From: an uncultured Gammaproteobacteria bacterium
GTDB lineage: Bacteria > Patescibacteriota > Patescibacteriia > Magasanikbacterales > GWA2-37-8
Reading direction: 5' to 3'
DNA length: 64,000 nucleotides
Assembly (NCBI GenBank): GCA_964596525.1
Contig: CAZQUL010000001.1
Coordinates: forward strand, 806,509 to 870,508
Position 1 is the stretch's first letter, and every line of letters begins with the position of its first letter. The position numbers were made by a program, and so were the translations under genes. The notes under the pieces are model-generated. The model saw only the letters and a list, made by a program, of their open reading frames with translations, ran no database searches and was not told the DNA's origin. Positions 13,533-37,365 of the stretch are shown piece by piece.

Positions 13533-14087
13533 ATGGAAAGAGCTTATGAGAAAGCAAGAGTTGCGGATGTGGCAGCCGAAAGACATCGGGATGAGTGGGG
13601 AAAAAGGCGTGAAGAATTGGTTCGCGCTGCGAAATTTGCTTGTGAAAACGCTGCTTTTTCCTATCGAAATTTTCATGTAGGAGCAGCGGTTCTAGGGTGG
13701 TCTGCAGCTCGTGGAACCTACGATATTGGTGTGGCGGGTAATCTCAAGGAACGCGAAAAAAGTGAGGTTGGCGACGATAAGCGCTGTGCCGAGCGTGGAG
13801 CGATTGACCATATGCTAGCCAAAGCGCCGGATGCTAAAATAGTCGGTATCGTTGTAGTTTCAAAGGAAGTCGGAACCACTCCTGGTTCAGATTTACACAC
13901 CAAGACTCTCCATTGCTGTGAGCAGTGCCGTAGTATGCTGGAGGAGAAAAAGTGTGTTAACAAGCAGGCTCCGATCCTAACGGTAAATCATCGTGGTGAC
14001 GAAGATATGACTGAAGAAATGACGGTTCAGGATATGTTGGATTTATACGACAAAGATAAGCATACCTATAAATCATTGGCGGCATAA
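13533..14087 (+). CDS. cytidine/deoxycytidylate deaminase-like zinc enzyme
   Basis: SYRNFHVGAAV, CAERGAI (C/H-A-E zinc motif) and CCEQC (PCxxC-like) match the CDA fold. There is about a 35-aa N-terminal extension. Confidence 0.65.
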   Translation: MERAYEKARVADVAAERHRDEWGKRREELVRAAKFACENAAFSYRNFHVGAAVLGWSAARGTYDIGVAGNLKEREKSEVGDDKRCAERGAIDHMLAKAPDAKIVGIVVVSKEVGTTPGSDLHTKTLHCCEQCRSMLEEKKCVNKQAPILTVNHRGDEDMTEEMTVQDMLDLYDKDKHTYKSLAA

Positions 14088-14099
14088 TTTTCTATTTCT

Positions 14100-15731
14100 A
14101 TGAAAACTAAATTTATTTTCGTGGTCGGTGGTGTGCTTTCGGGCGTGGGTAAAGGCGTGGCTTCGGCGTCTATCGGGCGCATTCTCAAGAACCGCGGACT
14201 CGAAGTTTCGGCGATCAAGATTGATCCCTACATCAACGTCGATGCCGGCACCATGAACCCGACCGAGCATGGAGAAGTATTTGTCACCGAAGATGCCGAT
14301 GAGGCTGATCAGGACTTGGGCAATTATGAGCGCTTTTTGGATACGAATATCACCTCGGTTAACTACATGACGACTGGCCGCGTGTATCTCTCGGTCATCG
14401 AAGCCGAGCGTAAGATGGCGTATAAGGGAAAGTGTGTCGAAGTGGTACCGCACATTCCTATGGAAGTAGTGGATCGCATCCACAAAGCTGCCAAGTTTAG
14501 CAAAGCCGATGTGATGGTGATTGAAATCGGCGGCACGGTAGGGGAATACCAAAACATCCTTTTCCTCGAAGCGGCGCGCATGATGAAGCTCAAAAACCCC
14601 GACGACGTGCTCTTTGTGCTCGTGAGCTACATGCCCATCCCCGGCCATTTAGGCGAGATGAAAACTAAGCCCACACAAGTTGCAGCCCGCACGCTTAATG
14701 CGAGCGGTATCCAGCCCGACATTATTTTGGCCCGCGGTAAAACCGAACTCGACAAACCGCGCCGCGAAAAACTCGCGCTTTTCTGCGGTTTGCGCTCCGA
14801 AGACGAGGTCATTTCCGCGCCAGATGTGGAAAGCATTTACCTTGTGCCCGAAGTGCTTGAACGCCAGAATTTGAGCAAACTCATTGCTAAAAAACTCAAG
14901 CTTCGTCTCAAGGGCGACAAAAGCGCCGAGTGGAACCAGTTTGTTGGCAAGATGCAGCGGGCGACTAAGCCGCTCAAGATCGCGGTGGTGGGCAAGTATT
15001 TCGGTACTGGTAATTTCACGCTTGCGGATTCGTATATCTCGGTTATCGAAGCTATTAAGCATGCTGCGTGGAGCCAGGGGGCAAAACCGGAATTGGCGTG
15101 GATTGATGCTGAGGATTTCGAAAGCGGCAAGCGCAGTGTTGCCGATCTTAAAGATTTCGCGGCCATTGTAGTGCCGGGAGGATTCGGATCGCGCGGTATT
15201 GAAGGAATCATCAAGGCCATCCGTTTCGCGCGCGAAGAAAAGATTCCGTATCTCGGCTTGTGTTATGGTATGCAGCTTGCTTGTATCGAATTCGTGCGCG
15301 ACGTGCTCGGAAAGAAAACCGCGCATACCGTGGAGGTAGACGCCGACACGGCCGATCCGGTAGTGCATATCAATCCGTTCCAAAAAGATAACGTGCGCCA
15401 CAAGCGTTATGGCGGTACGATGCGCCTGGGTGCGTACCGCTGTACGATTGAAAAGGGGAGTAAGGCGGCCAAGGCATATGGGGAACTTGAAATTTCCGAA
15501 CGCCATCGCCATCGCTACGAATTCAACAACGACTATCGCAGCGCCGTAGAAGAAAAGGGATTGCGCTGCGTGGGCATTAATCCAGAAAGCAATCTCGTGG
15601 AAATCGTCGAGCTTGCGGATCATCCGTATTTCGTCGGTGTGCAGTTTCACCCTGAGTTTAAATCCCGTCCGCTTCATCCGCACCCGTTGTTTGTCGGCCT
15701 TGTTAAAGCCGGAATGAAAGGTAAGGAATAG
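14100..15731 (+). CDS. pyrG: CTP synthase
   Basis: 543 aa. N-terminal synthetase domain and C-terminal glutaminase domain (GLCYGMQLA). Confidence 0.95.
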   Translation: MKTKFIFVVGGVLSGVGKGVASASIGRILKNRGLEVSAIKIDPYINVDAGTMNPTEHGEVFVTEDADEADQDLGNYERFLDTNITSVNYMTTGRVYLSVIEAERKMAYKGKCVEVVPHIPMEVVDRIHKAAKFSKADVMVIEIGGTVGEYQNILFLEAARMMKLKNPDDVLFVLVSYMPIPGHLGEMKTKPTQVAARTLNASGIQPDIILARGKTELDKPRREKLALFCGLRSEDEVISAPDVESIYLVPEVLERQNLSKLIAKKLKLRLKGDKSAEWNQFVGKMQRATKPLKIAVVGKYFGTGNFTLADSYISVIEAIKHAAWSQGAKPELAWIDAEDFESGKRSVADLKDFAAIVVPGGFGSRGIEGIIKAIRFAREEKIPYLGLCYGMQLACIEFVRDVLGKKTAHTVEVDADTADPVVHINPFQKDNVRHKRYGGTMRLGAYRCTIEKGSKAAKAYGELEISERHRHRYEFNNDYRSAVEEKGLRCVGINPESNLVEIVELADHPYFVGVQFHPEFKSRPLHPHPLFVGLVKAGMKGKE

Positions 15732-15786
15732 GAATTGGGAGTTGGTGATTTCTGATGAGACCTTAGTAAGTAAACCTTGCTTTTAG

Positions 15787-15884
15787 CTGTCATTGCGAGC
15801 GCAGCGAAGCAATCCCCTTGATAACAGAGTGAGCTCTGAATTACCTGGGGATTGCTTCGTCGGTATGCTCCTCGCAGTGACATG
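15787..15884. other. long imperfect palindrome / structured element (about 100 nt)
   Basis: Left arm TGTCATTGCGAGC..CGAAGCAATCCCC, 29-nt apical loop, right arm GGGGATTGCTTCG..CCTCGCAGTGACA. A perfect 13-bp inner stem plus an 11-12-bp outer stem separated by an internal loop. Confidence 0.45.
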
Positions 15885-15974
15885 TTTAGTCTTAACCTAA
15901 AAAGCGGAATACAGTATCTAAGTGTAGTATCGACACTTTTTTGATTAATCCGCACTTCGAGATAAAAGGGTGGC

Positions 15975-16003
15975 TTGACACAAAATGAAAAGTCTGGTAT
16001 AAA
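15975..16003 (+). promoter_or_regulatory. sigma70-like promoter TTGACA-N17-TATAAA upstream of the GC-rich island
   Basis: GGCTTGACAcaaaatgaaaagtctggTATAAA, about 200 nt upstream of the 16209 ATG. Confidence 0.45.
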
Positions 16004-16208
16004 AATAAGTCTTTCAGTGTCTGAGCGTTCGTTACAAGGAATGAAGAGAGGTTCATGAACATGGGTCCCACGCTGTTTTTTTGAAGTTTGAGCTTCAAAT
16101 AAGCGGTGTGGGAAGAGGATGGTAGCTTCAATAACAGTTGATGCGCCGCTTTTAACCCATTGTTCACACGACCCCAGTACTGACCCGACCGAGAACAAGG
16201 AGTGTACC

Positions 16209-17111
16209 ATGACCAAGCCCTCGAAGACCCCCGTGAAGCCCGGTAAGACCTCGACCAAGTCCCCGGCTGGCAAGGCCCCCGTGGCCAAGCCCGCCGCCAA
16301 GCCGAGCAAGAAGCCTGCGAAGCCGGTCACCGATGACGATGGCGAAGAGACCGTCTCCAAGGGTACCCTGACCACCGTGCTCAGCGGCATCGCGAACCTG
16401 CTCAAGAAGAAGCCGCAGGACATGGAGCCGGTCGAGCTGCTCGAGGCCTTCTGCGACAAGGCGACCCGCACCCGTGGCCTCGTCGACTGCGCCCGCGCCA
16501 TCTTCGGCGACTCCCCCTGCATCGTCATCAACCGCAACGGCCTGCCCAACAAGAGCAAGACGCTCGCGCGCTACAACGAGGAGAGCAAGCGGCGCGTGTA
16601 CGGCGGGCTCGAGGTCGTCTCGATCGAAGTCGCCCTCGGCAAGATCACCACCCGTAGTCCCTACGACTACCGGATGGAGCTCGACAACGAGGGCATCGAC
16701 GAGGACGGCATCGCCATGCCGGAGAGTTCCGAGGTGCGCGTGTTCATCCGGTTCATGGTCAACCAGCGGATGATGGGCCTCTCCGACGGACAGGTCGACC
16801 CCCAGCGCCGTGACGCCGTGAACCAGGCGGTCGAGAACTACCCCGAGGTGCCCCGCTCCTACGAGCAGGCCAAGATCCTGTTCGAGGGTGCCCGCGATCG
16901 CAACACGCCCGAGTACCGCAAGGCGGTCGAGGATCTCACGGCCGTCACCACGCAGTTCAGCGGCAGCTCGCAGTCCGGCCACGGCCACAACACCGGCTAC
17001 GGCTTCTCGAACACGGGCTACGGCCAGAACGGTGGCTACGCCGGCGACCGCCCGCTCGGCCAGTACAGCGACGGCCCGCGCAGCCCGCGCCGCGACTTCG
17101 GTCGCGACTAG
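16209..17111 (+). CDS. high-GC hypothetical protein with Lys/Ala/Pro-rich N-terminal tail and Gly/Tyr-rich C-terminus
   Basis: ATG preceded by AAGGAG. N-terminus KPSKTPVKPGKTSTKSPAGKAPVAKPAAKPSKKPAKP, C-terminus GHGHNTGYGFSNTGYGQNGGYAGD. GC at third codon positions is near saturation. The ORF-track start at 16119 lies in AT-rich leader DNA and was rejected. Confidence 0.7.
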   Translation: MTKPSKTPVKPGKTSTKSPAGKAPVAKPAAKPSKKPAKPVTDDDGEETVSKGTLTTVLSGIANLLKKKPQDMEPVELLEAFCDKATRTRGLVDCARAIFGDSPCIVINRNGLPNKSKTLARYNEESKRRVYGGLEVVSIEVALGKITTRSPYDYRMELDNEGIDEDGIAMPESSEVRVFIRFMVNQRMMGLSDGQVDPQRRDAVNQAVENYPEVPRSYEQAKILFEGARDRNTPEYRKAVEDLTAVTTQFSGSSQSGHGHNTGYGFSNTGYGQNGGYAGDRPLGQYSDGPRSPRRDFGRD

Positions 17112-17403
17112 AGGCTTCCGGCCTCGCGCGTCGGCGCCGTAACCTTGAGTAGGCGCTAGAGCCGTCCTGTCCAAGGTTTCTCCCTCGTACCTTCCCTCCC
17201 TTCATTCCTCCTGCAGAGATCGTCGCTCCGGTTCCCGGTTGCGGCGGCTCTCTGCCTTTCCCCCAAGAGCTTATGAAGCTCATGAGCACTTGGGTAGAAA
17301 GTTCAATCGTTTTTCTACTACATTGTTCGTTGCCAATCAGTGCTTTTCGCGAAGCTTTTTTTGTTTACGCCGCTTCCACCAACCTGAACGAAAGGAGACG
17401 TCG

Positions 17404-18408
17404 ATGTCCTTCCAGCCCCCGAACCAGCCGCGTGCCTTCGTCTGCCCCGCGCCCCGGAGCGTCGACAACCGCATCTTCGCCCCCGTCATCAAAGCCAATG
17501 GCCTCCTCATGGCCGTGGCCTACCAGCGTGACGGCGAAGCACCCACGCTCGTCAACCTGTTCCGTGAGCCTGGGCGCGACGACGGCCGCATCCTCGTGCC
17601 GCTCCCGCCCGAGGGGGTGAACGTCAGCCTGCTCATCTTCAACCCCACCTCGAGTGCCATCGGCATCCTCGGTGCGGTCGAAGGCGTGTCGATCGTCAAC
17701 CCGAAGCAGGGCGTGTTCGAGCCCACGACCGCCTCCTGCCTGGTCATCAACCCGGGCATGGAAGGCGAAATCGCGGGCTACGTGAACGTCGCGGCGAACG
17801 GCGTGGCAGCGCTCGCGCGATGGAGGCTCCAGCCGGTCGGCTATGGCACCACGGTCGGCGAAGCCACGAAGAAGACCACGGATCTGCGCGGTCAGTGCGA
17901 CCTGTATGTCCGTACCGCCTACCGGGACTTCATGCGCCAGCCCATGGACGACGGCTATATGCGGGATATCGCCTCATCATCCGGCAACCTCGGGTACGAT
18001 CCGGGGCTCGTCGCGGCGCGTCCCTCGCGTCGTGCGGAGGACCTGGATGAGCCGAACTGGGACCATGACAAGCTGCGCAGCCCCAGCAAGGGTACGCGCA
18101 ACGCTCCGGATCGGGGTGGTACCGTACAGGTCGGCATCGGCACCGACGTCACGCAGGAGATTGAGGATCTCCAGCCGGTCTCGTTCTGCCTCGGCGAGAC
18201 AAGCCCGCTCTGCCAGCTCTGGATCGTGGCGCGCTCCGAAGTGCTGCGAAGTTGCATCGAAGGACATCTGGGCCACCGGGCCTGGAACTGGGAGTGTACT
18301 TCCGAGCTGGCCTGGCAGCACCTGAACTCGCTCACCCCGCCGCCTGCCCCGGTCGTCCCCGGCGTGCCCACTGCCCTGAAGGGCTGGGGGTCTGCGCGCC
18401 AGCCCTAG
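17404..18408 (+). CDS. high-GC hypothetical protein (334 aa)
   Basis: ATG preceded by AAAGGAGACG. The composition switches to GC-rich exactly at the start codon. No recognised motif. Confidence 0.65.
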   Translation: MSFQPPNQPRAFVCPAPRSVDNRIFAPVIKANGLLMAVAYQRDGEAPTLVNLFREPGRDDGRILVPLPPEGVNVSLLIFNPTSSAIGILGAVEGVSIVNPKQGVFEPTTASCLVINPGMEGEIAGYVNVAANGVAALARWRLQPVGYGTTVGEATKKTTDLRGQCDLYVRTAYRDFMRQPMDDGYMRDIASSSGNLGYDPGLVAARPSRRAEDLDEPNWDHDKLRSPSKGTRNAPDRGGTVQVGIGTDVTQEIEDLQPVSFCLGETSPLCQLWIVARSEVLRSCIEGHLGHRAWNWECTSELAWQHLNSLTPPPAPVVPGVPTALKGWGSARQP

Positions 18409-18432
18409 CGCGAATCTGAGGCGCGCGCTTTG

Positions 18433-18468
18433 AGCGCCGTTATCCTGTAAAGGAAGCGGCGCTTTTTT
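18433..18468 (+). terminator. candidate rho-independent terminator
   Basis: Stem AGCGCCG/CGGCGCT with a 17-nt loop followed by TTTTTT. Confidence 0.4.
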
Positions 18469-18637
18469 GATAGTAAAGATGATGCAAAAACATTGACTTT
18501 TTTATATATGTACGCTATTCTACGCCGTTAAACTTTCCACCTAGGAATATACTTCGTATTTCTTGGCGGTACGTTTACCGACCCGTTTTTAACGGGATCT
18601 TTCTCTGACAACACAACGCATACGAAGGAGGATTACG

Positions 18638-19921
18638 ATGGCGACCCAGACAGTTCTTGATCCGACCGCTTATCTCGGTTTTGCTAACGGTCTGCCGCTC
18701 TTTCGCGAGCACCGCCAGGCGCTCATCGCCGCGATTGGAGGTCTGGCACACCAGTTTTTGCTTTCGCCCGATGAAGAGCGATCGACGGTAAGAGAGTTGG
18801 TACCGGAAGGTGCCTGGTATCAGCATGTGCCCCGCGATCCGCGTCATGTCGACGATCTCTTGATCAACAAAGTCGGCAACAGGGTGGCGCGGGCGATGAT
18901 TGGCGAGCTACTTGCTCGCTTCAACGCGCTCACTACCGTGTGTCCGCTCGGGCATCTGGGTGTTGGTATCGACAATGGCTCCTGGACAGTGCGCGCCACC
19001 GGAGAGCGTTGCCTCGTGCCCACCTGCCGAGAGACCATCTTGTGGGAGCCTCCGCCGGTTTCGCACTACGACTGGGTCGACGACTGTCTGGTTTCCCTGG
19101 TGGTCCGCGATCGGGTGATTGGCGGGTGCAACGTGCCGATCCATATCGAAAATATCGAGCGGCTCGTCAACAGCATGGGCGGATTGCGTCCTGAGGTTGA
19201 ACAGGTGCTCTCAATTGCGACGCTCCAGAACCGGGGGCTTACCCTTAAGAAGCTTCTCGGTCAGCTGTGGCGTACGCACGCGGTGCGCTATGGCCATCAG
19301 CCGCTCAAGGTTCTCTGGTCGTTCACCCGGCATAATCCCGAATCAGTGGCATATGTGGTGGACGAGCTCAAGAGCGCGGCGTTTGCGGCTGTAACACGCC
19401 AGGCGTCGAGTGGTCCGCCGCCCGCTCCTACATCAGTAGCTCCGCGCAAGAAGCGCGAGAAGCTCTCGGTGGTGGCTATTGCCGCGGCTGACGAAGGCAT
19501 CGATCTGTGGATTCTCCAAGACGTGGCCAAAAGCTTAAAGACCCTCAAGGACTACTCAAGAATTACCGTGTGGACTACGGCGAACTGCACCTTTCCTCAC
19601 CTTATGGCAGAGTGCCTCCCGCCGCAGCTCCAGAACGCCGATGTTGTCTTGCTCTTTTTGAGCGATCGGTTCTTTAAGAGTCCCTGCGGTAAAGAAGCGG
19701 AGCGAGTTCTCCACGGCTTCTGCGACGGACTTTTCCCGTTCCGTATCTACTTGGTGAAGATAAACACCTACTCTTCGGAGTTGGCGTATAACTTGCCAGC
19801 GTTGGTGGATAGCAAGGGCTCGCGGCCGAGTGATGTCGATACGATTGTCCGCACTGCCGCTCTCAAGCTCGCCACCATTATTCCGGCCCACCTCGAGATC
19901 TTTGATCGCGAAAACGCCTAG
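18638..19921 (+). CDS. hypothetical protein with C-terminal TIR-like domain
   Basis: RBS GAAGGAGG. The C-terminal 150 aa read KLSVVAIAAADEG...DVVLLFLSDRFFKSPCGKEAERVL...FRIYLVKINTYSSELAYNLP. This matches the TIR beta-A/alpha-C pattern (S-x-x-[YF]-x-x-S-x-W/C-C-x-x-E). The N-terminal 270 aa are unknown and Cys-rich. GC is about 58-60%. Confidence 0.6.
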   Translation: MATQTVLDPTAYLGFANGLPLFREHRQALIAAIGGLAHQFLLSPDEERSTVRELVPEGAWYQHVPRDPRHVDDLLINKVGNRVARAMIGELLARFNALTTVCPLGHLGVGIDNGSWTVRATGERCLVPTCRETILWEPPPVSHYDWVDDCLVSLVVRDRVIGGCNVPIHIENIERLVNSMGGLRPEVEQVLSIATLQNRGLTLKKLLGQLWRTHAVRYGHQPLKVLWSFTRHNPESVAYVVDELKSAAFAAVTRQASSGPPPAPTSVAPRKKREKLSVVAIAAADEGIDLWILQDVAKSLKTLKDYSRITVWTTANCTFPHLMAECLPPQLQNADVVLLFLSDRFFKSPCGKEAERVLHGFCDGLFPFRIYLVKINTYSSELAYNLPALVDSKGSRPSDVDTIVRTAALKLATIIPAHLEIFDRENA

Positions 19922-20041
19922 CTCTATACCCCCACAAGCAGCTTCCCAAAGCTGCTTTTGCATGTGTGCAAAGTTATACACAGAGTAAACTCTCGGACAA
20001 AGTGTTGTGATGTGGTATACTCTCTACATCACAAGGAGCAA

Positions 20042-20062
20042 GGAGGGGCCCCTCTTTTTTGT
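20042..20062 (+). terminator. candidate terminator
   Basis: GAGGGGCCCCTC palindrome followed by TTTTTTG. It is preceded by a second hairpin, TTGTGATGT..ACATCACAA. Confidence 0.4.
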
Positions 20063-20293
20063 TTGCTTCATACTAAGTGAGGTCGTTGCGAATACGAGTT
20101 ACTTTAGGGTGACTCTCTTTATCCTCGCCTTATTTTTGGATGGCATCCGCATGCGCGGGTCGATTCTGAGCTTAAGGGGAAGATAAGCTCCTGTCAGCGA
20201 TGACGGGAACCTCTTTTCGCAATGACGTCCTTTAGTAGGAACTCACAACGGGTTTCTGCGATTTTACAATTTTTACGACATAAGGAGGGGGAG

Positions 20294-20347
20294 ATGTGCT
20301 TGTTGTTTCTTTATGTCATCATCAAGGTGGGAGACCTTCCTTTTTAG
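20294..20347 (+). CDS. 17-codon leader-like mini-ORF (MCLLFLYVIIKVGDLPF)
   Basis: The window's strongest RBS (TAAGGAGGGGGAG) sits 3-4 nt upstream of its ATG. It overlaps the annotated start of the next ORF in another frame. Confidence 0.25.
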   Translation: MCLLFLYVIIKVGDLPF

Positions 20348-21128
20348 TTTTAGCTCATTGGTAAAGGCGGTGCGGCGAAAAAGCCAGACGTCATCGTTTT
20401 CGCGTCGGGCTTTTTTTCTTGCGCTGCTTTTTTTTGGTGAACTTTTATTGGTTGTCATAGCGTTGCCGCTTATCGTGTTCCGGTCAAAAGCAGCTTTGCC
20501 GCGTGAGGTGGAGCGTTTTTACCGGGCACATCGACAAGCTATGCTTCTGCTTATCGTTCCGCTTCTTAGTATCGGAGTCGTTAAAATTGGTCTTGTGGCG
20601 TATGCTTGGACCTCGCCGGACGACCGTACGGTAAACATTACCGTGCAGTCTGATGAAGTAATTAAACCCTCGATACTAGCTCGTTTTCCGTCTACGGCCA
20701 CGGGTACGCTGCCGCCGCCAGTGGTTGCTGGTATGGCAATGGTGGCGGGTAATACATCGTGGTTTGGGACAGCTGCGCCGGGTGCAGGCGTGGTGGTAGT
20801 TCTTGAACCGGTCGGTGCGCCAGGTGCTGCACGTTGGCTTTTTGCCACTACGTCAAAGGACGGTTCGTGGCAGATTGTGCCTGAAGAACGGGTAGCACGG
20901 CTCGACTCCGGTTCGTATCTCGTTACCGCAACGGCTTTTAATCCGCTCACCCTCAACAAAAGCGCGTCATCGGGAGCCCGGCTTTTTGTGGTTGAGCCGC
21001 GTTTACGAGAAATGCTCCTCCGCCATGCCGATACTGCGGCGAATTGGGCGGTAGCTATCCTGGGCGCGGTCACGTATCTTTTTGTCATCGTTACTTACTC
21101 CGCATCGTATGGAAGAAAAACGCGTTAA
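20313..21128 (+). CDS. membrane protein (hypothetical). The start is uncertain.
   Basis: N-terminal TM helix AFFLALLFFGELLLVVIALPLIVF, C-terminal TM helix WAVAILGAVTYLFVIVTY, and a central Ala/Gly/Pro-rich domain. Confidence 0.5.
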   Translation: MSSSRWETFLFSFSSLVKAVRRKSQTSSFSRRAFFLALLFFGELLLVVIALPLIVFRSKAALPREVERFYRAHRQAMLLLIVPLLSIGVVKIGLVAYAWTSPDDRTVNITVQSDEVIKPSILARFPSTATGTLPPPVVAGMAMVAGNTSWFGTAAPGAGVVVVLEPVGAPGAARWLFATTSKDGSWQIVPEERVARLDSGSYLVTATAFNPLTLNKSASSGARLFVVEPRLREMLLRHADTAANWAVAILGAVTYLFVIVTYSASYGRKTR

Positions 21129-24100
21129 GAAGAACGTTTCTGTCCGAAAAACGGCTGGATCGGTAAAAAAGCTGCAGCTGACTAAAAAAACCATTGTCCG
21201 TCGGGCGCAAAAATCATTGCCTGTCTCCGTTCGCCCAACGTCGTCAAGACCAGATTTTAGCTTAGAAAAACTACTTTCTTTTATTCCTCGCATCGAAGCG
21301 CGGCGTTTGCCTTTGTTCGTTCTGCGTCTTGGCAATTTTTTGGCGCAACGCGCCCGTCGATCAGCTGTTTTGGCGCTTGGTCTTATTGCTCTTTCCGTTG
21401 TGCCGATGGCCTGGTCGTGGGCCGTTGCAGATCAGAATGAGAGCGCTCCGTTAGAGTATATTAATTGGACGTTTGCTCCTGAAAAAACGGTAGCTTACCG
21501 TTACGATCCAAGCCGAATTCAGATCGTTGATGGCGTGGCTATTTTGAAAGCAATCCCGCGTGAAGAAATGCCGCGTCCCGAAGAACCTGTTGCGAATGGT
21601 GAAGCTCCTCTTCTCGTACCGACGAGTATGACGGATGAGCCTGATGAGCAGCCTGGTGCAGGTGAAAATACTCCTTCTTCTACCAATGAAACAACTACAC
21701 CGTCGACGCCAGCACCTCCTTTTTCAGAAGAGTCCGATGTAACTACTACTGCGAAGCGTACACCCTGGTGGAGGAGTCTGGTTGGGCGAGTTATTGCTGC
21801 CGAAGATGAGAGTATAGTGTCGCCTTGTTACGCTGAAATCGAAGCGCTTGAACCGCAAACTCTGCCCGCGCGAACAGAGCTTGCGGCGTTTGAAGCGATT
21901 ACGGTAACGGGAGGCGGACGCGTGGATTTTCAACTTTCTCGCGATGGTGGGGCAACATGGCGAGCGTTTTCTGATGATGAATGGGTCGCGTCGTCGACAC
22001 TTTTTTCTTCAGCTGAAACGATTAATCGGCATCTCGATAAGTTCGGGTCAGCGGAAACTATTTTGTTCCGTGCCCGTTTGATGAGTGCGTGTGAGGAACC
22101 GGTTGGTCTGGTGCGCGTGAGTGTCGGCTATGCCAAAGAACGAATTCCGGAAAAATCTGTTTCTGCACCTGCGCTCGAGGTTGCTATTTCCACATCTTCG
22201 TTTGAAGTGGTGAAAGCGAATCATTCGGCGGAGCGTAGCGCTGAAGAAGGACAGTATCTTACCGTCGATCGTTTTCCGCTTGCGTATCTTGAAGGCGCGA
22301 GTACGACCTGGGCGGTTTTTCCGTGGCATGAAGTTGTAGCGGGGCACACATCTACAACCAGTTGGTTGCATTTGGGGGGAGCGTCACGTGATGGTTTGGC
22401 AACCGTGCAGCTTATCGTGCCGCGGCGCAGGGCGGATGCCGGTGTACGGGTATGCCCGGGTGCCCAGAATGCGAATGAAGTGTACCGTGGCTGCCCAAAC
22501 GAACATATTCTTACGCTTGAGGAACCCACATCTTCGCCGTATTATTTGACCGCTTTGGAAGATCTTGATCGTTGGCATATTGAAGCGCCGGCAGCCGTAT
22601 TTTCCACGGGAGCGGAGCCGATCATAGACGCGCTTGTCGCTGAATGGGCGATGGACGATAGCGACGTGTGCCGGATCGTAGACACGTTTGGTCGTGCGAC
22701 CGGTACCATAAGCGGCAGTTGTTCTTTAGCACCCGGCCGTATTGAAGGAAAATTTGGCACCGCGCGTCTGGCAAGTTCAACCAGCTCGCCTTTCGTGATT
22801 CCGTTTGTTGCCCCGGCGGCTACTACGTCGTGGACGTTTAGTACCTGGGTTTACCCTGCCACGTCAACCGCGCTACGCGTGCTCGCTGAGCAGGCGGATC
22901 AGTTCCGTTGGTTTGCCGACCCGGACAATCGTTTGCTGTTTGACTATCGAGATAGTACGACCGGCCAGTGGCAACGTCTAACTCCGAGCAATGCCTTGCT
23001 GAACAGTTCGTGGCAACAGGTTGCCGTATCTGCGGGAGAAGAGGGGGTTGCGCTCTATCAAAACGGCACGCAGGTTGCTTTTGCGTCGTCTACTGCGCAG
23101 TTTTTGTCTGCCTCTTTTTTCTTAGGAGCTGCGGCAACGAGTTCGGAAGCAGGGTGGGTAGGTGGAATTGATACGTTCCGCTGGTATAATTATCCGTTTA
23201 CTCTTGAGCGTGCGGCCGAAGAATATGTCCGCGGCAGCAACCATGCGCCGGAGCTACGCCTTGATGCGCCCGTGTTTAACGCAGCTTCTGGCACAGTTTC
23301 GTTTCCCTATACGTTATTCGATTACGATGCCGATGTCGTACGCTTGCCGCGCGTGGAGTATTCAGCCACCGGAGCGTTTATCGGCGAAGAGCGGCCAGCG
23401 ACACCAGCGGTTGCCGATTCTGCGCATAGCGGTACGGTGAATCTGCCGGCGCGGCGTGATGGTGTGCGTGGGACGTTTGTCTGGGATCTGCGTACTGATG
23501 TTGGCGATGCCGTGCACGAGGACATGGCAATGCGCATTGTCCCGGCCGATAGTTTCGGCGAAGGTAGTGCAACATCCACCCATACCGGACGTCTGGCTGT
23601 GTGGAGCGTGGATGGTGAGCCGGTGGTGGGGGGTAGTCATCGGTGTACGCCGCAAACACCCCGTTGTTCTACGCTTGGTCAGGCTTTGTCCCAAGCGCGC
23701 GACTATGACACGGTCCGCGTTGCGACCGGTACGTATCCAGAACAGATTACGATTGAACGGCCGCTTTCTTTTATTGGCCAGGGGAATCCGCGTATCGATA
23801 CGGTGAAACTTGTCAAAAACGGTCGTGTGGTGCGATCACGCGGCGTAGTGGCAGAGCGTATACAGCTTGATAAAGCGAGTGGTGACGTACGTATCGCCGA
23901 CGCGCTTCTAATCGCTGCCCCGGGTGCAGAGATTGTTTTGTCCGCCGGAACCTATAAAGAAGACACGCAGCTTGCTATCCGTCAGTCAGTTTCCATCAAG
24001 GGTACCAGCCAAAGTTCTACTGTCATCGTCAGTCCCCGTACGATCGGTACCCAGTTTGCTGATTTATCACTTATCGATATTGCTGGCACTAACGATATGG

Positions 24101-25968
24101 CGACACGGACCATCAATGTGAGTGTCGAAGATTTGACGGTAGATGTTGAGCGCATGCCTCGTCTTAAATTTGGCATCATGGTGCGCGGTGGTGCGTATGC
24201 GCATCTCAAGCGCGTGACCGTTAAAGGAACGCTGCCGGCCTGGGGTGACTGGAACACCGGTAATATTATCGTGGGCTGGAAAGATTTCGGGTATGCCGGT
24301 GAGGCACTTATCGAAGATTCGTACACTACTGATTTCCATTCTTTCGGCGTGGCGGCATATGGCCCGCGTAATAAGGTAACTCTTAAGCGCACCACAATTC
24401 AGGGAACACCCTCGATGAGCGTTTGCAACGGTGCAGTCGGTGTTATCGTTCAGTCAGACGCCGTGGCCGATATTGCGGCGACAACTATCCGCGGCTTGAT
24501 GCGCAATCCTGTAACTTCTACGTGTCCGGCGCCGGTTTACGGATCAGGACTCGAGCTCTATTGGGCCGGTAAAGTTCGTATCGAAGGTTCCCGTTTTGAA
24601 AGTGGTGAATATGGTATCGGTTCGTATAACCAGTGGGGGCCCAACCAGCCACTGTCCATTGTTGGTACCACGTTCCATAATCTTGATGTTGCCATCCAGC
24701 TTGGCGGCAGTATCGGCTTTGATGATTTCCGTTTAAATAGCTTCACGAGCACTACGTTGGCTATTCGCAATACCATGTCGACGCCCGTGGTTGCTTCTGC
24801 CTCGTGGTGGGGTGATGCGAGCGGTCCGTATGATCCTAAACCGTTGCCAGGTATACCGGATTACAATAATCCGTCCGGGAAAGGCGCAGCAGTGACGAGT
24901 TACATCGATTACCGTAATTGGCTTACTTCTGTACCATTTCAGATTTCGGTATCATCAACGGGCGGTGGTAGCGTTACGCCGGGTGGGATTTTTGAAGCGG
25001 CGTATCGCGGCATGATCGACTTTGCCCTTATGCCTGATAGTGATTACGACATTGATGACCTTGTAGTGAATGGTGTTTCAGTCGGACCTACTACGTCGTA
25101 TCGCATTGGTGAAGTGACGTCGAGTTACACGATTTTTGCCGCCTTCAAGCAGCGCCCGCCGCGGCCGATCGGTGGCACGGACCCAACGCCGCAACCGATT
25201 GTGTTCGTCCCTGCGCCTCCTTCGGCTCCGGTATCGGTTGCGTCTGCTACATTGCCGTCGGTGAGCAGTACGCCTGGTGTTTCCTCGTCTTTACCTGACC
25301 TGATCTCGGATGCGCGCTCTGGCGTGCCGGACTATCAATTCCCCGCGTCATACACATATCTCCAAGATAACACGCACCTGCAGACTGGCGTTTTGAATTC
25401 GTCCTCACCCATTCTTGCGATAAGTATTGCAAGTAGCGCAAAACCATCCGTTGTTGGTGCTAACGTTCGGGCGTTCCTTGCGCCGCGTTCGCAACCGGTT
25501 TCTCCTTCCACTACTGCACCGCTTTCAGCCACGCCTTCACTTTTGCCGCAGACAGAAATAACGAGTGTTACCCCAGCTGCGCTTAATGACCGTCTTGTTA
25601 TTACGGGTACAGGTTTGCCGCACGGCGAAGCGCTAGTCTTTATCCATTCCGAAGAAGCGGTTACCTACCGTGTCACGGTCGACAAAACCGGTGCGTGGTC
25701 TTTGGTGCATGACCAAGCTGTTGTTGCGCTTGAACCGGGTGACCATACGGTATATGCGGTTTCGTATGATCCCAAAACCAACATCAGCTTGGCTCCTAGC
25801 CGTGTGCATGGTTTTGTTATTGAGCAAAAATGGTTCAGCTACCTCATGCGCTACGTAGATGTGCCAACGACGCTCATGACGTTTGGCATCTTGCTGCTTA
25901 TTGCGGTCGGTTTATCTACCCGGCTTAGGATAGAATATGGTATAGTACTACCACGTTCTCAATCGTAA
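21082..25968 (+). CDS. giant surface protein (about 1620 aa) with LamG/concanavalin-like and right-handed beta-helix regions
   Basis: N-terminal signal-anchor AVLALGLIALSVVPMAWSWAVA. LamG-like block SWTFSTWVYPA...GVALYQNGTQVAF. Pectate-lyase-like beta-helix repeats (GTYPEQITIERPLSFIGQG, SAGTYKEDTQLAIRQSVSIKGTS). C-terminal TM helix TLMTFGILLLIAVGL. The likely start is the internal ATG at 21109. Confidence 0.8.
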   Translation: MSSLLTPHRMEEKRVKKNVSVRKTAGSVKKLQLTKKTIVRRAQKSLPVSVRPTSSRPDFSLEKLLSFIPRIEARRLPLFVLRLGNFLAQRARRSAVLALGLIALSVVPMAWSWAVADQNESAPLEYINWTFAPEKTVAYRYDPSRIQIVDGVAILKAIPREEMPRPEEPVANGEAPLLVPTSMTDEPDEQPGAGENTPSSTNETTTPSTPAPPFSEESDVTTTAKRTPWWRSLVGRVIAAEDESIVSPCYAEIEALEPQTLPARTELAAFEAITVTGGGRVDFQLSRDGGATWRAFSDDEWVASSTLFSSAETINRHLDKFGSAETILFRARLMSACEEPVGLVRVSVGYAKERIPEKSVSAPALEVAISTSSFEVVKANHSAERSAEEGQYLTVDRFPLAYLEGASTTWAVFPWHEVVAGHTSTTSWLHLGGASRDGLATVQLIVPRRRADAGVRVCPGAQNANEVYRGCPNEHILTLEEPTSSPYYLTALEDLDRWHIEAPAAVFSTGAEPIIDALVAEWAMDDSDVCRIVDTFGRATGTISGSCSLAPGRIEGKFGTARLASSTSSPFVIPFVAPAATTSWTFSTWVYPATSTALRVLAEQADQFRWFADPDNRLLFDYRDSTTGQWQRLTPSNALLNSSWQQVAVSAGEEGVALYQNGTQVAFASSTAQFLSASFFLGAAATSSEAGWVGGIDTFRWYNYPFTLERAAEEYVRGSNHAPELRLDAPVFNAASGTVSFPYTLFDYDADVVRLPRVEYSATGAFIGEERPATPAVADSAHSGTVNLPARRDGVRGTFVWDLRTDVGDAVHEDMAMRIVPADSFGEGSATSTHTGRLAVWSVDGEPVVGGSHRCTPQTPRCSTLGQALSQARDYDTVRVATGTYPEQITIERPLSFIGQGNPRIDTVKLVKNGRVVRSRGVVAERIQLDKASGDVRIADALLIAAPGAEIVLSAGTYKEDTQLAIRQSVSIKGTSQSSTVIVSPRTIGTQFADLSLIDIAGTNDMATRTINVSVEDLTVDVERMPRLKFGIMVRGGAYAHLKRVTVKGTLPAWGDWNTGNIIVGWKDFGYAGEALIEDSYTTDFHSFGVAAYGPRNKVTLKRTTIQGTPSMSVCNGAVGVIVQSDAVADIAATTIRGLMRNPVTSTCPAPVYGSGLELYWAGKVRIEGSRFESGEYGIGSYNQWGPNQPLSIVGTTFHNLDVAIQLGGSIGFDDFRLNSFTSTTLAIRNTMSTPVVASASWWGDASGPYDPKPLPGIPDYNNPSGKGAAVTSYIDYRNWLTSVPFQISVSSTGGGSVTPGGIFEAAYRGMIDFALMPDSDYDIDDLVVNGVSVGPTTSYRIGEVTSSYTIFAAFKQRPPRPIGGTDPTPQPIVFVPAPPSAPVSVASATLPSVSSTPGVSSSLPDLISDARSGVPDYQFPASYTYLQDNTHLQTGVLNSSSPILAISIASSAKPSVVGANVRAFLAPRSQPVSPSTTAPLSATPSLLPQTEITSVTPAALNDRLVITGTGLPHGEALVFIHSEEAVTYRVTVDKTGAWSLVHDQAVVALEPGDHTVYAVSYDPKTNISLAPSRVHGFVIEQKWFSYLMRYVDVPTTLMTFGILLLIAVGLSTRLRIEYGIVLPRSQS

Positions 25969-26006
25969 CCTTCTCGCCCGTCGGGCCTTGTTCTAAACAA
26001 TCACGT

Positions 26007-27038
26007 ATGGCGCCATCTCGTTACGTTTCCGGTGCAGCCTTGCTCTCGCTTCTCCTTACGTTCGGTGTGGGGTGCAATATCGTTTCGGTGCGCACCGCCG
26101 GCTCAACCCCAAGCGCGCCCACAACCGCCGCTCCAGTGAAGCGTTCCCGCGTTACGCTTGTGCCAAGCGCGCCTTCGTACGTCGTTCCCGTGGTCGAAGA
26201 TTACCTTACGTCCAATATCGTAAAACCAAAAAATACCGGCAGCGTTCTTACGGCAGCATTTTATACCTATGCCCAAGAAGAGCGCGAAGACGAACTTTAC
26301 TACTATATTTGGGGCGTGGTTGGTGAGTACGGGCAGCGTTCAGGCCGCGTGGTAACACTCGGCAGTTTCAGCGCGCCGCTCATTATTATTCTGGCCAAAG
26401 ATACTGATGGCGCTTATACGCGCGTTTTGGGGTACCGTCAGGCGCGTTCGCGCACCGAATCGCAGGCCATCCGCGAACTCTTCCCTCTAGATGCCGTTAA
26501 AGAAATACTCGGCCAAGAAGACGTCCATTCCAAACGCGTCGAACTCTTGTTTACCGAGACCCTCAATAAAGCGCGGGCAGCATTCAGCGTAGGCACCCCT
26601 GTTGATCTCGAAGCGGAAAGCGATGAGAAATGCATCAATTATAAATTCGAAGATTTCTCGCTTGGCGACCCCTACACCGGCGGTTATAATCCGTACCAGA
26701 TCGTCGGTTGGACCATCAGCAGCAACCTCAATACCGCCTTGGCGAGTGCTTACAATTCTGGTCCCAATTTAGCCGGGCGCTTCGTTATCGCGCGTGCGGC
26801 CTGCGGAACCAACTGCTACGAATACGGCATTGTCGACAATGCTACCGGCAATTTGGTTGCTGCACCCTTCCGTGCGAACTATGGCGTGGATTTCCGCCCT
26901 GATAGCCGCCTCATCGTCGTCAATCCGTACAAGAACATTCTTACGCCCAAATCCGCCGTGGTTACTTCGTACCTCGAGCTCATCGTTACGGCTACCGATG
27001 CCCGGCTCGAAACCCGCTGCGTGTATACATCCCGTTAA
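26007..27038 (+). CDS. secreted / lipoprotein-like hypothetical protein
   Basis: The signal peptide ends in TFGVGC. No recognised catalytic motif. Confidence 0.6.
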   Translation: MAPSRYVSGAALLSLLLTFGVGCNIVSVRTAGSTPSAPTTAAPVKRSRVTLVPSAPSYVVPVVEDYLTSNIVKPKNTGSVLTAAFYTYAQEEREDELYYYIWGVVGEYGQRSGRVVTLGSFSAPLIIILAKDTDGAYTRVLGYRQARSRTESQAIRELFPLDAVKEILGQEDVHSKRVELLFTETLNKARAAFSVGTPVDLEAESDEKCINYKFEDFSLGDPYTGGYNPYQIVGWTISSNLNTALASAYNSGPNLAGRFVIARAACGTNCYEYGIVDNATGNLVAAPFRANYGVDFRPDSRLIVVNPYKNILTPKSAVVTSYLELIVTATDARLETRCVYTSR

Positions 27039-27055
27039 TCTTCCCTTACTCAATA

Positions 27056-27087
27056 AAAATACTCCGCTAAACGGAGTATTTTTATTG
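27056..27087. terminator. bidirectional terminator between convergent genes
   Basis: AAAAATACTCCG-ctaaa-CGGAGTATTTTTATT. Confidence 0.7.
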
Positions 27088-27097
27088 TGGGAAATTC

Positions 27098-27784
27098 TTA
27101 CTTTTTGAAAACTACACAAACCGCACCCAAGAGCCGCTTGGCGCCAATTTTTTCGATACTCCAGTCGTAGGCTTTACTGATAAGGTTTATGAGCGGGAAA
27201 CGGTGTAGATATACATATGTCGCGGCACGGTACTGAAGGTGCTGTACCATGAGGCCGGCAGCAGTGAAATGATGCGTAAAATCTTCGATCGATGCATACG
27301 CGTAGTGTGTTTCGTGGGCATGGTGCTCGTGGCCTTCGGCATGGCCTCTCACGAGTTGGTGAAAGGCGTGCGGCGTGTGTTTGGAAACGACGAATTCCGG
27401 CGCTCGCGGATTGGGGATTGAGGTGACGAAGATTCCGCCCGGCTTAAGGATACGGCTCACTTCGCGGGCGCTTTGTCCCAAATTCTCGATGTGTTCGAAA
27501 ACGAAGTTGGCGAATACTGCATCGTAGCGATTATCGGGCAACGCCTTCAAATCCTCGGCCGAAGCTTGGTAGCTTTGGCCAAGCCAAGGGTGCGATGTGC
27601 TGAGCGAACAGTCTACGATATCTGCTCGGTCCGCGGTAAACATGAGGCCAGCGCGGGCAAGTTCGGTTTCGATGACGATACTTTGGTTGGCGCCTAGATT
27701 AAGAATGTGGGCGTGTGGCTGCGAGTGTAGAGCCTTGATGAGGGCGGCTATAAGATCGCGTTCGGCAGGGGATTGTAAAGCCAT
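27098..27784 (-). CDS. class I SAM-dependent methyltransferase
   Basis: ILNLGANQ (motif I), DAVFANFVFEHI, ILKPGGIF. Trimmed to the first ATG (the ORF-track start is TTG). Confidence 0.75.
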   Translation of the reverse strand: MALQSPAERDLIAALIKALHSQPHAHILNLGANQSIVIETELARAGLMFTADRADIVDCSLSTSHPWLGQSYQASAEDLKALPDNRYDAVFANFVFEHIENLGQSAREVSRILKPGGIFVTSIPNPRAPEFVVSKHTPHAFHQLVRGHAEGHEHHAHETHYAYASIEDFTHHFTAAGLMVQHLQYRAATYVYLHRFPLINLISKAYDWSIEKIGAKRLLGAVCVVFKK

Positions 27785-27832
27785 ACGGAATCGTGATACA
27801 ACCAAGAATAATAACCTTAGTTTACCTTACGT

Positions 27833-28252
27833 ATGGCTAAAAGCAAACTGACTATTCTTATCGTTGCGGCGGTGCTTATCGTCGTTTTTGGCGTATTCCT
27901 TGGCTACCGCATCAAAGAAGCCCTGCAGACCCCGCATCTTATTGTGGCTCATACCGAGTATCCCTTGGCGCGCGATATGTGGCACCTTAATGGACAGCCT
28001 TTGGCGGTAGGCAAGGGGATTTGTTTCTGGCAGGTTGGTAAGCGCGGTGAGATCAAGCTCGAGCGCACCGACGGTCAAATCGCGACTGCTACATTTTCTA
28101 ATACTTTAAGCATCTCTGCTCCGTTTCCGTTCGTGCAATTTTCTATCGAAACCACCCCGGGTTTTTTTGGTGGGTTAAAGGTACTTGAAATTCCCACGAC
28201 CTCCCCGATGGTGAAGGAATTCTCCTGTCCGTCCGAAGTAAAATCCTTATAA
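27833..28252 (+). CDS. membrane-anchored hypothetical protein
   Basis: N-terminal TM helix LTILIVAAVLIVVFGVFLGY. Confidence 0.5.
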   Translation: MAKSKLTILIVAAVLIVVFGVFLGYRIKEALQTPHLIVAHTEYPLARDMWHLNGQPLAVGKGICFWQVGKRGEIKLERTDGQIATATFSNTLSISAPFPFVQFSIETTPGFFGGLKVLEIPTTSPMVKEFSCPSEVKSL

Positions 28253-28305
28253 AATTGAAGACCGCCCCGAGTCTTCGGAGCGGTGCAGAAGTAGTTGTCT
28301 GTTCT

Positions 28306-28725
28306 TTAGCGGGCGAAGAGGCTGGCAAGTGCCGTCACCGTAACCGTGTAGATCGACGGTTCGGTGGGGCGCTGTTGAAGGGGGCGAAACGGACGGCAGC
28401 GGCGGTTGCGCGCAATGAGCTGGGCGGCCAGTTCGTCTGTCGATCCGCTGCTTGGCGCTGTTGCGGCAGGTGCTGTGTCAGACGATGGTTCGAGGGTTGG
28501 TGCGGATGTTCCACCGCACGGCACGCACTGGGTTCCGTCCCAGCACGTCCCGGGACCGCAAGCACTGCTGCGGGCCTCGCACGTATTGTTTCCAGGATTC
28601 ACCACGGTCCCGGTGCCGCAAGCCGCCGGTCCGCAACCGCCCAGGGTAATGAAAGTACTGTTAAGCAAAAAAACCCCTACCGCAGCAAGCGGTAGTGAGG
28701 AAATTGGTTTCATCCGGCTCTTCAT
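28306..28725 (-). CDS. Cys-rich secreted/lipoprotein-like protein. It looks chimeric: a native signal peptide joined to a high-GC mature domain.
   Basis: RBS AAGGAGG. The signal MKPISSLPLAAVGVFLLNSTFITLGGC is encoded in AT-rich DNA. The mature part (10 Cys, Gly/Pro/Thr-rich) has GC3 near 90%. The plus-strand ORF 28255..28695 is a GC-rich shadow. Confidence 0.55.
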   Translation of the reverse strand: MKSRMKPISSLPLAAVGVFLLNSTFITLGGCGPAACGTGTVVNPGNNTCEARSSACGPGTCWDGTQCVPCGGTSAPTLEPSSDTAPAATAPSSGSTDELAAQLIARNRRCRPFRPLQQRPTEPSIYTVTVTALASLFAR

Positions 28726-28946
28726 GAACGACCTCCTTTTGTTGTGGGGCGGGATCGAGGCTTATGCTAGCATAATGCCTAGATTTTGGCAAGGATATTT
28801 TAGGATAACCGGTGATAGTAAAAAGAGATATTTTTTGCCTAACATTAGCTTGATTTTACCTGCAAACTTGGTATAATCTGATAACTATGTGCTTTCGGCG
28901 CGTAGTGTGCTACGCTAGCTCGGCCTAGCTTTCTATCTGTTTCTCT

Positions 28947-35931: not shown

Positions 35932-37365
35932 TCAGCGCAGCACGATGCTCATGGCGATGATCCAGAGCACGTACACGATGACGGTGCGCAGCATGAGCGG
36001 GATCGCCGCTCGCCTCCAGGCGCTTGATTCGACCTGGAGGGCTGCGCGAATCGGGAAGTTGGGAATGTTCCCGGGTGGGGTGAGCGTGCCGCCGAAGAGC
36101 GCCGCGAGCATGATGGCGATGATGATGATCGTCGCCGCCGCCATGCTCAGCTTCCCGTTCGCGATGAGCGGCACTACCAAGGCCGCGAAGACCTTGGTGA
36201 TGAGTGCATTGTCGGCGTACCCCGATGCCGGCGCTGCCACCAGAAAGAAGAGCGCGGCGACGGCCAGCGTGGGCAGGTCGAGGGGGATGAACCCTGCAGC
36301 CCAGCTCACGAAGGGCGCCCCCACGGTTCCGATCACGTCGAGAGCGGCGAGAAGGGCGGCGAGGACGATCGGCTCCCACTTGGCCTTGGTGCGGTCCTCG
36401 AGCACCTTGTGCGGCAGATTGTCGTGGCGAGGGAAGCGGCTGCGCGAGATGAAGTAGTTGGCGATGCCCGTTGCCGCATCGACGAGGGCGAGAAGGATGT
36501 TCTCGCTGATCGCGATGTGGGCGGTGATCATGATGCCGAGGTGCAGGAGGGGCAGTGCCATCTTGTCCGAGAAGCCGAAGGGCTTGAGGATCGGGTACCG
36601 AGCCTCTTCCTTCATGAGGCTGAGCGCGCCCCGACTCGTGAAGAGCACGTAGATGAAGCAGGGGAGCCCGACGAGGGCCAGATAGGTCCCCAGCCCCCAG
36701 CCAAAGCTCGTCTGGAGCACACCCCAGACGATGATGACCGGGGGTGCGACGTACGGCAGGATGCCGTTGCCGCTACCGATGACGGCAGCGAGCTTCACCG
36801 CGAGCTCCGCGCGCTTGTCGGAGCGCACGCGCTCCTCGAGATACTTGACGAGCACCACGCTCGCCGCTGGCCCCATGAGGCTGGCCATGAGGCCACCTCC
36901 GACGAGAACGAGCCATAGGCCGCCGACATACTCGAGTGCCCGCAGGATGGGCTGCGTGTGGGGGGCGGCGATGCGAGCGGCCGCGAGAATGCCGAGCAGT
37001 GCCAGGCAGTTGTACACGACGGACGCATGGATGAGGAAGTGGCCCGTCGAGATGAAGACCGCGCCAAGCGCGATCACGCCGACGGCGATGCCGGCGTACT
37101 CACCCTCATCGGTGGTCTTGTGCAGAAAACGGATGAGGGACTTGTGCTCGCGCAGCCAGGTGCGAGGGCGGCCGATGATCATGAGGTCCGCCTTGGCGAA
37201 CCCGAGCATGGCAGCGATCGCGGCCAGGAGGAGAAGTCCTCCGCTTACGACCGCGCTTCCATGCGTGAGCTGCACGGCGAGAAACGCTACGAGGCACAGA
37301 ATCCCGAGATAGCACTCGAGGATTGCCTCCTTAACTCCAACCAGTGCATTGTCCTTGTGCGACAT
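35932..37365 (-). CDS. high-GC polytopic ion-transporter-like membrane protein (477 aa)
   Basis: At least 10 predicted TM helices. Resembles the NhaD/ArsB/CitMHS-type ion transporter superfamily by topology only. RBS AGGGAGGG. GC is about 63-65% with high GC3, and the flanks are AT-rich. Confidence 0.7.
   Translation of the reverse strand: MSHKDNALVGVKEAILECYLGILCLVAFLAVQLTHGSAVVSGGLLLLAAIAAMLGFAKADLMIIGRPRTWLREHKSLIRFLHKTTDEGEYAGIAVGVIALGAVFISTGHFLIHASVVYNCLALLGILAAARIAAPHTQPILRALEYVGGLWLVLVGGGLMASLMGPAASVVLVKYLEERVRSDKRAELAVKLAAVIGSGNGILPYVAPPVIIVWGVLQTSFGWGLGTYLALVGLPCFIYVLFTSRGALSLMKEEARYPILKPFGFSDKMALPLLHLGIMITAHIAISENILLALVDAATGIANYFISRSRFPRHDNLPHKVLEDRTKAKWEPIVLAALLAALDVIGTVGAPFVSWAAGFIPLDLPTLAVAALFFLVAAPASGYADNALITKVFAALVVPLIANGKLSMAAATIIIIAIMLAALFGGTLTPPGNIPNFPIRAALQVESSAWRRAAIPLMLRTVIVYVLWIIAMSIVLR

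What the first reader, a model, noticed from the sequence alone, without database searches (positions are those of the whole stretch)
18638..19921. Candidate defence effector with C-terminal TIR-like domain
The last 150 aa follow the TIR pattern. There is a beta-A-like VVAIAAADEG, an alpha-C-like DVVLLFLSDRFFKSPCGKEAERVL with a Glu in the position of the NADase catalytic Glu, and a beta-D-like FRIYLVKINTYSSE. Bacterial TIR proteins act as NAD-consuming antiphage effectors, as in Thoeris ThsB. The 270-aa Cys-rich N-terminal domain is unknown and would be the sensor part. The gene sits in acquired DNA next to two unknown genes, which is the context expected of a defence island.
Basis: partly seen in the sequence, partly recalled or inferred. 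Interest (0 to 1): 0.7.

Follow-up and report, generated by a model that had tools for sequence, protein, structure and literature searches.

The report
Divergent TIR protein in CPR cassette
The gene encodes a real protein whose last ~140 residues form a very divergent TIR domain attached to a previously undescribed zinc-ribbon domain. It is the third gene of a rare, fast-evolving three-gene cassette found only next to pyrG in a small group of ultra-small (CPR) bacteria, so it is probably an immune or conflict module, but it is not a known defence system and does not sit in a classical defence island.

The parts
18638..19921 (+). [not shown]
   Evidence: ORF; SD sequence; homologues; identical protein on two other assemblies
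18638..19408 (+). Z N-terminal domain (residues 1-257): five helices, beta-hairpins carrying a zinc ribbon, then five helices. This is the family-defining domain and has no known relatives.
18941..19027 (+). Zinc-ribbon-like motif C102-x3-H106 ... C125-x4-C130. Homologues have CxxC ... Cx2-4C.
   Evidence: Alignment A1; weak Zn_ribbon/zf-C2HC5 hits in homologues; coordinates
19409..19459 (+). Pro/Ser-rich disordered linker (residues 258-274)
   Evidence: pLDDT <50 at residues 255-273; variable length in alignment A1
19460..19885 (+). Divergent TIR_2-type domain (residues 275-416) with (beta-alpha)5 order. Invariant family motif A334 / S342..F345(F346).
19694..19702 (+). E353-A354-E355 at the start of helix alpha-C: the two candidate catalytic Glu residues
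   Evidence: HMMER aligns the catalytic Glu of PdTIR/BtpA with E353. The family-conserved Glu column is E355. The register is not resolved.
17404..18408 (+). Gene Y: 334-aa protein of unknown family, the conserved partner immediately upstream of Z
   Evidence: 46 invariant columns across 4 lineages. Found upstream of Z in the window, L083, L084, L087-89 and L090. No Pfam, NCBIfam, PADLOC, PHROG or PDB hit. SD sequence.
16209..17111 (+). Gene X: 300-aa protein with a K/P/A-rich N-terminus and a G/Y/N-rich C-terminus, very fast evolving, first gene of the cassette
   Evidence: Alignment A5; X HMM hits only at the syntenic position; GC3 0.94; SD sequence
14100..15731 (+). pyrG (CTP synthase): native housekeeping gene that anchors the cassette in every lineage

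Best explanation
[not shown]
Confidence: 0.5

Rival explanations
1. The C-domain is a TIR domain that has no enzymatic activity and works only as a homotypic assembly or adaptor module, as in animal MyD88 and MAL. Z would then be a scaffold that brings the N-domain, X, Y or (in orthologues) EAD-coupled partners together.
Against: A Glu within one residue of the canonical position is kept in 7 of 8 family TIR modules despite ~20% overall identity. The window protein has Glu on both sides of the position (E353, E355). From general knowledge rather than a test here, characterised prokaryotic TIRs that retain this Glu are mostly NAD+-cleaving enzymes.
Confidence: 0.22
2. The C-domain is not a TIR in function. 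It is a related flavodoxin-like nucleotide or nucleoside N-glycosidase (nucleoside 2-deoxyribosyltransferase / MilB-like), and the cassette works in pyrimidine nucleotide metabolism or modification together with the adjacent pyrG and cytidine deaminase.
Against: All sequence-level links are to TIR_2/TIR and none are to deoxyribosyltransferase families. The deaminase has no counterpart in the other loci. The cassette is missing from 80 other Patescibacteria pyrG loci, and from L004 where pyrG abuts secA. Long spacers and separate SD sequences, plus a promoter-like site before Z, argue against simple co-transcription with pyrG. The evolutionary rate is atypical for a metabolic enzyme.
Confidence: 0.08
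3. [not shown]
For: The organism is a Patescibacteria/CPR lineage with a ~1.3-Mb genome. From general knowledge, many such lineages are episymbionts, and pathogens use TIR effectors such as BtpA/TcpB, which appear among the sequence hits. Fast evolution fits any antagonistic interface. Large surface proteins are encoded immediately downstream.
Against: Z, X and Y have no obvious signal peptide, transmembrane segment or secretion-associated domain on reading their sequences, and no Pfam match of that kind. No secretion-system genes are adjacent. EAD-type tails in orthologues are features of intracellular conflict systems.
Confidence: 0.08

Closest known systems
Pfam TIR_2 (PF13676) bacterial TIR-domain proteins, e.g. 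PdTIR (3H16), BtpA/TcpB (4C7M, 4LZP, 4LQC), AbTir (7UWG)
   Different: The window protein is far below the family's gathering score (15 against 28 bits). The Glu is displaced by about one residue relative to PdTIR and BtpA. It is fused to an N-terminal domain not seen with any other TIR.
Thoeris ThsB (TIR sensor that signals to ThsA)
   Same: A bacterial TIR-domain protein in a small gene cluster of otherwise unknown genes. One of 8 family members gives a weak ThsB1 hit (E=0.0025).
   Different: There is no ThsA (SIR2/SLOG or Macro/TM) partner in the cassette or its flanks. The window protein has no PADLOC hit. ThsB proteins lack this ~257-aa N-domain.
EAD-coupled TIR effectors of NTPase-centred ternary conflict systems (Kaur, Burroughs, Iyer, Aravind; eLife 2020 and 2021)
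   Same: Orthologues P0003, P0004, P0005, P0007 and P0008 end in an alpha-helical tail that resembles EAD7 (best E=1.9e-4). The architectural logic matches too: variable effector modules on a constant part, lineage-specific paralogues and rapid turnover.
   Different: The window protein has no EAD tail. No vWA-MoxR, STAND or GTPase core, and no second EAD copy, is encoded nearby in any locus. The EAD7 matches are below Pfam's cut-off (17 against 32 bits).
Plant and animal TIR domains (RPS4, RPP1, MAL/TIRAP, MyD88) and SEFIR domains
   Different: Sequence identity is only 9-15%. The resemblance is at fold level and comes from a medium-confidence model.

Membership tests
TIR_2 / TIR (Pfam PF13676 / PF01582) | Score at or above the curated gathering threshold for the protein itself | tested here: not met
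   Window protein: TIR_2 15.2 bits (E=0.031) for the whole protein and 17.2 bits for the isolated domain, against a cut-off of 28.
TIR_2 / TIR (Pfam PF13676 / PF01582) | Homology to bona fide members shown at family (profile) level | tested here: met
   5/6 family C-domains hit TIR_2. Paralogue L085:2022-3098 scores TIR 22.1 bits against a cut-off of 21.3 and belongs to the same family. The C-domain profile finds TIR_2 protein P0009 (E=7.5e-4 in 5.8e9 sequences; hhalign 97.1%, E=5e-11; P0009 scores 33.6 bits against Pfam TIR_2).
TIR_2 / TIR (Pfam PF13676 / PF01582) | Flavodoxin-like (beta-alpha)5 TIR fold | tested here: met
   [not shown]
NAD+-cleaving TIR enzymes | Catalytic Glu at the start of helix alpha-C | tested here: inconclusive
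   HMMER places the PdTIR/BtpA Glu on window E353. The family-conserved Glu column is E355. The canonical gapless position (S+12) is A354. The column holds Asn in P0005 and no Glu in P0009.
NAD+-cleaving TIR enzymes | NADase or ADPR-cyclase activity | not testable with these tools
   Needs a biochemical assay.
Thoeris | ThsB TIR protein encoded next to a ThsA effector (SIR2/SLOG or Macro/TM) | tested here: not met
   X, Y and the flanking genes have no SIR2, SLOG or Macro hit. PADLOC gives no hit for Z and one weak ThsB1 hit (E=0.0025) among 8 family members.
EAD-coupled conflict systems | EAD on the effector plus a cognate EAD on a core NTPase or VMAP component nearby | tested here: not met
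   Window Z ends right after alpha-E with no tail. The tail HMM hits only Z orthologues, not X, Y or the flanks. No NTPase core lies nearby. The orthologue tails are EAD7-like but below threshold.
Defence island / mobile element context | Neighbouring known defence genes, or integrase, transposase or att repeats | tested here: not met
   The flanks encode Era, cytidine deaminase and PyrG upstream, then surface proteins, a methyltransferase and SecA downstream. There are no significant flanking repeats. tRNA genes lie 5 kb or more away. The cassette is syntenic in relatives.

The most novel reading that the evidence does not exclude
Probability: 0.3. Interest if true: 0.6.

Novelty: new variant of a known kind. 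Interest (0 to 1): 0.42.

Why it matters
TIR domains are a central immune module in bacteria, plants and animals, and most of their variety lies in what is attached to them. This TIR is so divergent that it escapes curated thresholds. It is fused to a confidently folded domain with no relatives and sits with two orphan partner genes, in ultra-small CPR bacteria whose defences are little explored. If functional, the cassette would add a new sensor architecture to TIR immunity. It would also offer a compact three-gene system to test. The family is extremely rare (about nine members among ~15 billion predicted proteins), which limits its general reach.

Tried and rejected
1. The single-sequence search of 5.8 billion proteins found only the query itself. 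The profile searches added only P0008, and for the C-domain only P0009. The C-domain search did not return the family's own members, so that tool's word filter is limiting here.
2. Foldseek against the PDB gave no hit at E<1e-3. AFDB50 was not available, so the N-domain fold could not be compared with predicted structures.
X and Y therefore remain without a fold.
4. Metagenome and viral DNA scans failed or found nothing. The Z and Y alignments were too divergent to make patterns, and closer subsets found no relatives. tblastn against phage genomes and plasmids gave no match.
5. PADLOC, PHROGs and NCBIfam gave nothing meaningful for X, Y or Z.
7. An integrative mobile element was rejected: no flanking repeats, integrase or adjacent tRNA.
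8. I first read L083 as a distant organism carrying the same cassette, which would have implied horizontal transfer to pyrG. That was wrong: its PyrG is 82-83% identical to the window's, so it is a relative.
9. The recurring xylanase and MO25 hits in the PDB profile searches were judged to be chance. They cover different, partial segments and are unrelated folds.

Full report
**Observation**

The ORF is exactly as described: 18638..19921 on the + strand, 427 aa, ATG start, with an AAGGAGG Shine-Dalgarno sequence 7 nt upstream. The three quoted motifs are at residues 278-287, 335-358 and 368-381. The identical protein occurs on two further assemblies and on an NCBI contig of 1.34 Mb. The surrounding 16-20 kb is GC-rich: 0.57-0.64 against ~0.51, with GC3 of 0.94, 0.85 and 0.68 for the three genes, against 0.60 for pyrG. 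The host is a CPR/Patescibacteria bacterium. Its CTP synthase (14100-15731) is closest to Magasanikbacteria-type MAGs at 71% identity, and all 80 best pyrG loci are Patescibacteria-like.

**Is the C-terminus a TIR domain?**

Alone, the protein gives only a sub-threshold Pfam TIR_2 match (E=0.031, 15.2 bits against a cut-off of 28, residues 323-371). It has no PADLOC hit and only chance-level NCBIfam matches, and no meaningful PDB sequence hit. A word-indexed search of 5.8 billion proteins found only the query itself.

An exhaustive HMMER scan of 1.84 billion cluster representatives found six distant homologues (E 1e-4 to 2e-17). All of them matched through the N-terminal ~270 residues. Four of these, plus P0008 from a later profile search, carry a segment after the N-domain that aligns with the window's C-terminus. 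The invariant columns are beta-A V, Ala334 and the S342..F345 motif.

Scanned separately, 5 of 6 such segments hit TIR_2 (best E=6e-4) and 2 hit TIR. In L085, a truncated tandem paralogue belongs to the same family (hhalign probability 100%, E=6e-76). It scores above Pfam's own cut-off for TIR (22.1 against 21.3 bits) and just below it for TIR_2 (27.7 against 28).

A profile of the C-domains alone, searched against 5.8 billion proteins, returned exactly one outside protein, P0009 (E=7.5e-4). P0009 is a bona fide TIR_2 member (33.6 bits) and aligns with the family profile across 127 columns, from beta-A to alpha-E (hhalign 97.1%, E=5e-11). Profile searches of PDB sequences list PdTIR (E=0.016), BtpA/TcpB (0.02-0.05), AbTir, RPP1, TRIF and Hydra TRR2, all in one register. 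Each E-value is marginal, and chance xylanase and MO25 hits are mixed in.

**Structure**

AF2 with the 8-sequence family alignment gave mean pLDDT 73.6, about 90 in the N-domain and 50-72 in the C-domain. A C-domain-only model gave pLDDT 71.4 and pTM 0.67. Both show beta-A/alpha-A through beta-E/alpha-E in TIR order.

Taken together, the sequence and fold evidence supports a highly divergent TIR_2-type domain at residues ~275-416. I rate this assignment at about 0.8.

**Catalytic Glu**

HMMER aligns the catalytic Glu of PdTIR and BtpA (…K/R-E-LDG) with window E353. The column that is Glu in most family members corresponds to E355. The canonical gapless position, 12 residues after the S..FF serine, is Ala354. 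P0005 has Asn in the family column, and P0009 has no Glu there. A Glu is therefore present next to the expected spot and is largely conserved, but the register is unresolved. Catalysis is plausible and not shown.

**N-terminal domain**

C-terminal modules vary across the family. They are TIR alone (window, P0006), TIR plus an alpha-helical tail (P0004, P0005, P0007, P0008), tail only (P0003), or an unrelated domain (P0002). The tails are EAD7-like: 2 of 5 hit EAD7, with a best E of 1.9e-4, below Pfam's cut-off. EADs are adaptor domains that recruit effectors to conflict-system cores by homotypic pairing (PMC7159879, PMC8195603). The window protein has no tail. No second EAD copy occurs in X, Y or any flanking ORF.

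**Context**

|---|---|---|---|---|
| window vs L083, L084, L087 | 83-89% | barely alignable | 28-30% | 29-31% |
| L083 vs L084 | 98% | 92% | 84% | 77% |

- **Synteny:** the same pyrG→X→Y→Z order occurs in L083/L084 and L087-89, and Y-Z adjacency occurs in L090.
- **Fast evolution:** the identities above come. Between L083 and L084, dN/dS is 0.27 (X), 0.29 (Y) and 0.22 (Z), against 0.01-0.10 for flanking genes. The genes are constrained but evolve fast.
- **Domain turnover:** one of the two close orthologues (P0008, L084) has the EAD-like tail and the other (P0006, L083) does not.
- **Clade restriction:** HMMs for X, Y, the Z N-domain, the TIR and the tail found nothing in the 80 other Patescibacteria pyrG loci. 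In L004, pyrG abuts secA, whereas the window has ~13 kb of lineage-specific genes in between.
- **Conserved GC-richness:** the GC excess (X > Y > Z) is present in every lineage. It is therefore not the signature of a recent one-off acquisition, and its cause is unexplained.
- **Flanks:** they are housekeeping or surface genes (Era, a cytidine-deaminase-like gene, PyrG; a Laminin_G_3 giant protein, a methyltransferase, SecA). There is no integrase, transposase, flanking repeat or known defence gene.
- **Partners:** X and Y have no detectable family, no PDB relatives and no homology to each other or to Z.
- **Elsewhere:** no relatives exist in IMG/VR, phage genomes, plasmids or JGI metagenome contigs.

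**Interpretation**

The Thoeris analogy and the 'defence island' context are not supported.

The rivals are a non-catalytic scaffolding TIR (0.22), a nucleotide N-glycosidase tied to pyrimidine metabolism because of the fixed pyrG adjacency (0.08), and a host-directed toxin of an episymbiont (0.08).

**Novelty and score**

The TIR domain is a known kind. The new elements are the fusion to an unrelated, confidently folded zinc-ribbon domain, the two orphan partner genes and the CPR setting, so I file this as a new variant of a known kind. The family is tiny, with about nine members found. Interest is 0.42.

Noticed in passing
window 16209-19921; L083 7546-11227; L084 7535-11464; L088 1986-6519: The GC3 excess of the cassette, with the gradient X > Y > Z (window 0.94/0.85/0.68), is conserved in every syntenic lineage, although the proteins have diverged to ~30% identity. 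A one-off foreign origin should have ameliorated by now. The cause is unknown; candidates are expression-linked codon bias, GC-biased conversion at a recombination hot spot, or repeated allele replacement.
   Followed up: partly
window 35932-37365 (-): A second GC-rich patch (GC 0.65, GC3 0.86) encodes a 477-aa multi-pass membrane protein with a DUF1646 match (23.8 bits against a cut-off of 21.4). It is unrelated to the cassette.
   Followed up: partly
window 13533-14087 (+): A cytidine/dCMP deaminase-like gene (PF00383, 28.9 bits) lies directly upstream of pyrG. It has no homologue in any of the other fetched pyrG loci.
   Followed up: partly
window 15732-28946 compared with L004 3886-3952: In relative L004, pyrG is followed within ~70 nt by secA. 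In the window ~13 kb separates them, holding X-Y-Z, a 271-aa membrane protein, a 1628-aa Laminin_G_3 surface protein, a 343-aa protein and a methyltransferase. The region downstream of pyrG is therefore variable in this clade.
   Followed up: partly
L083 10001-11227 (P0006) compared with L084 10001-11464 (P0008): These two orthologues are 77% identical, from genomes whose PyrG is 98% identical. They differ in that only P0008 has the ~75-aa EAD7-like tail, which shows domain gain or loss on a short time scale.
   Followed up: no
L085 188-3098; L086 146-2656: Tandem Z paralogues carry different C-terminal modules: TIR+tail next to TIR in L085, and tail-only (P0003) next to an unknown ~150-aa domain (P0002) in L086.
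   Followed up: partly
window 16209-17111 (gene X); L083 7546-8253: X has a Lys/Pro/Ala-rich, histone-tail-like N-terminus and a Gly/Tyr/Asn/Ser-rich low-complexity C-terminus. The L083 orthologue instead carries weak double zinc-ribbon matches in its middle part.
   Followed up: no
window 15732-16208, 17112-17403, 18409-18637, 19922-20312: The cassette has unusually long intergenic spacers (229-478 nt) in an otherwise compact small genome. A sigma-70-like promoter match lies at 18493-18521, before Z. No Rfam family was found in these spacers.
   Followed up: no
L083 11430-12767; L084 11635-12972: A cytochrome P450 gene directly downstream of Z in these relatives is also GC-rich (GC3 0.68-0.72). 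P450 is an unusual gene for a CPR genome.
   Followed up: no
L091 1216-3523: The closest bona fide TIR_2 relative (P0009, 225 aa) is followed, with overlapping stop and start codons, by a 542-aa protein with no Pfam match. This may be another uncharacterised two-gene TIR module.
   Followed up: no
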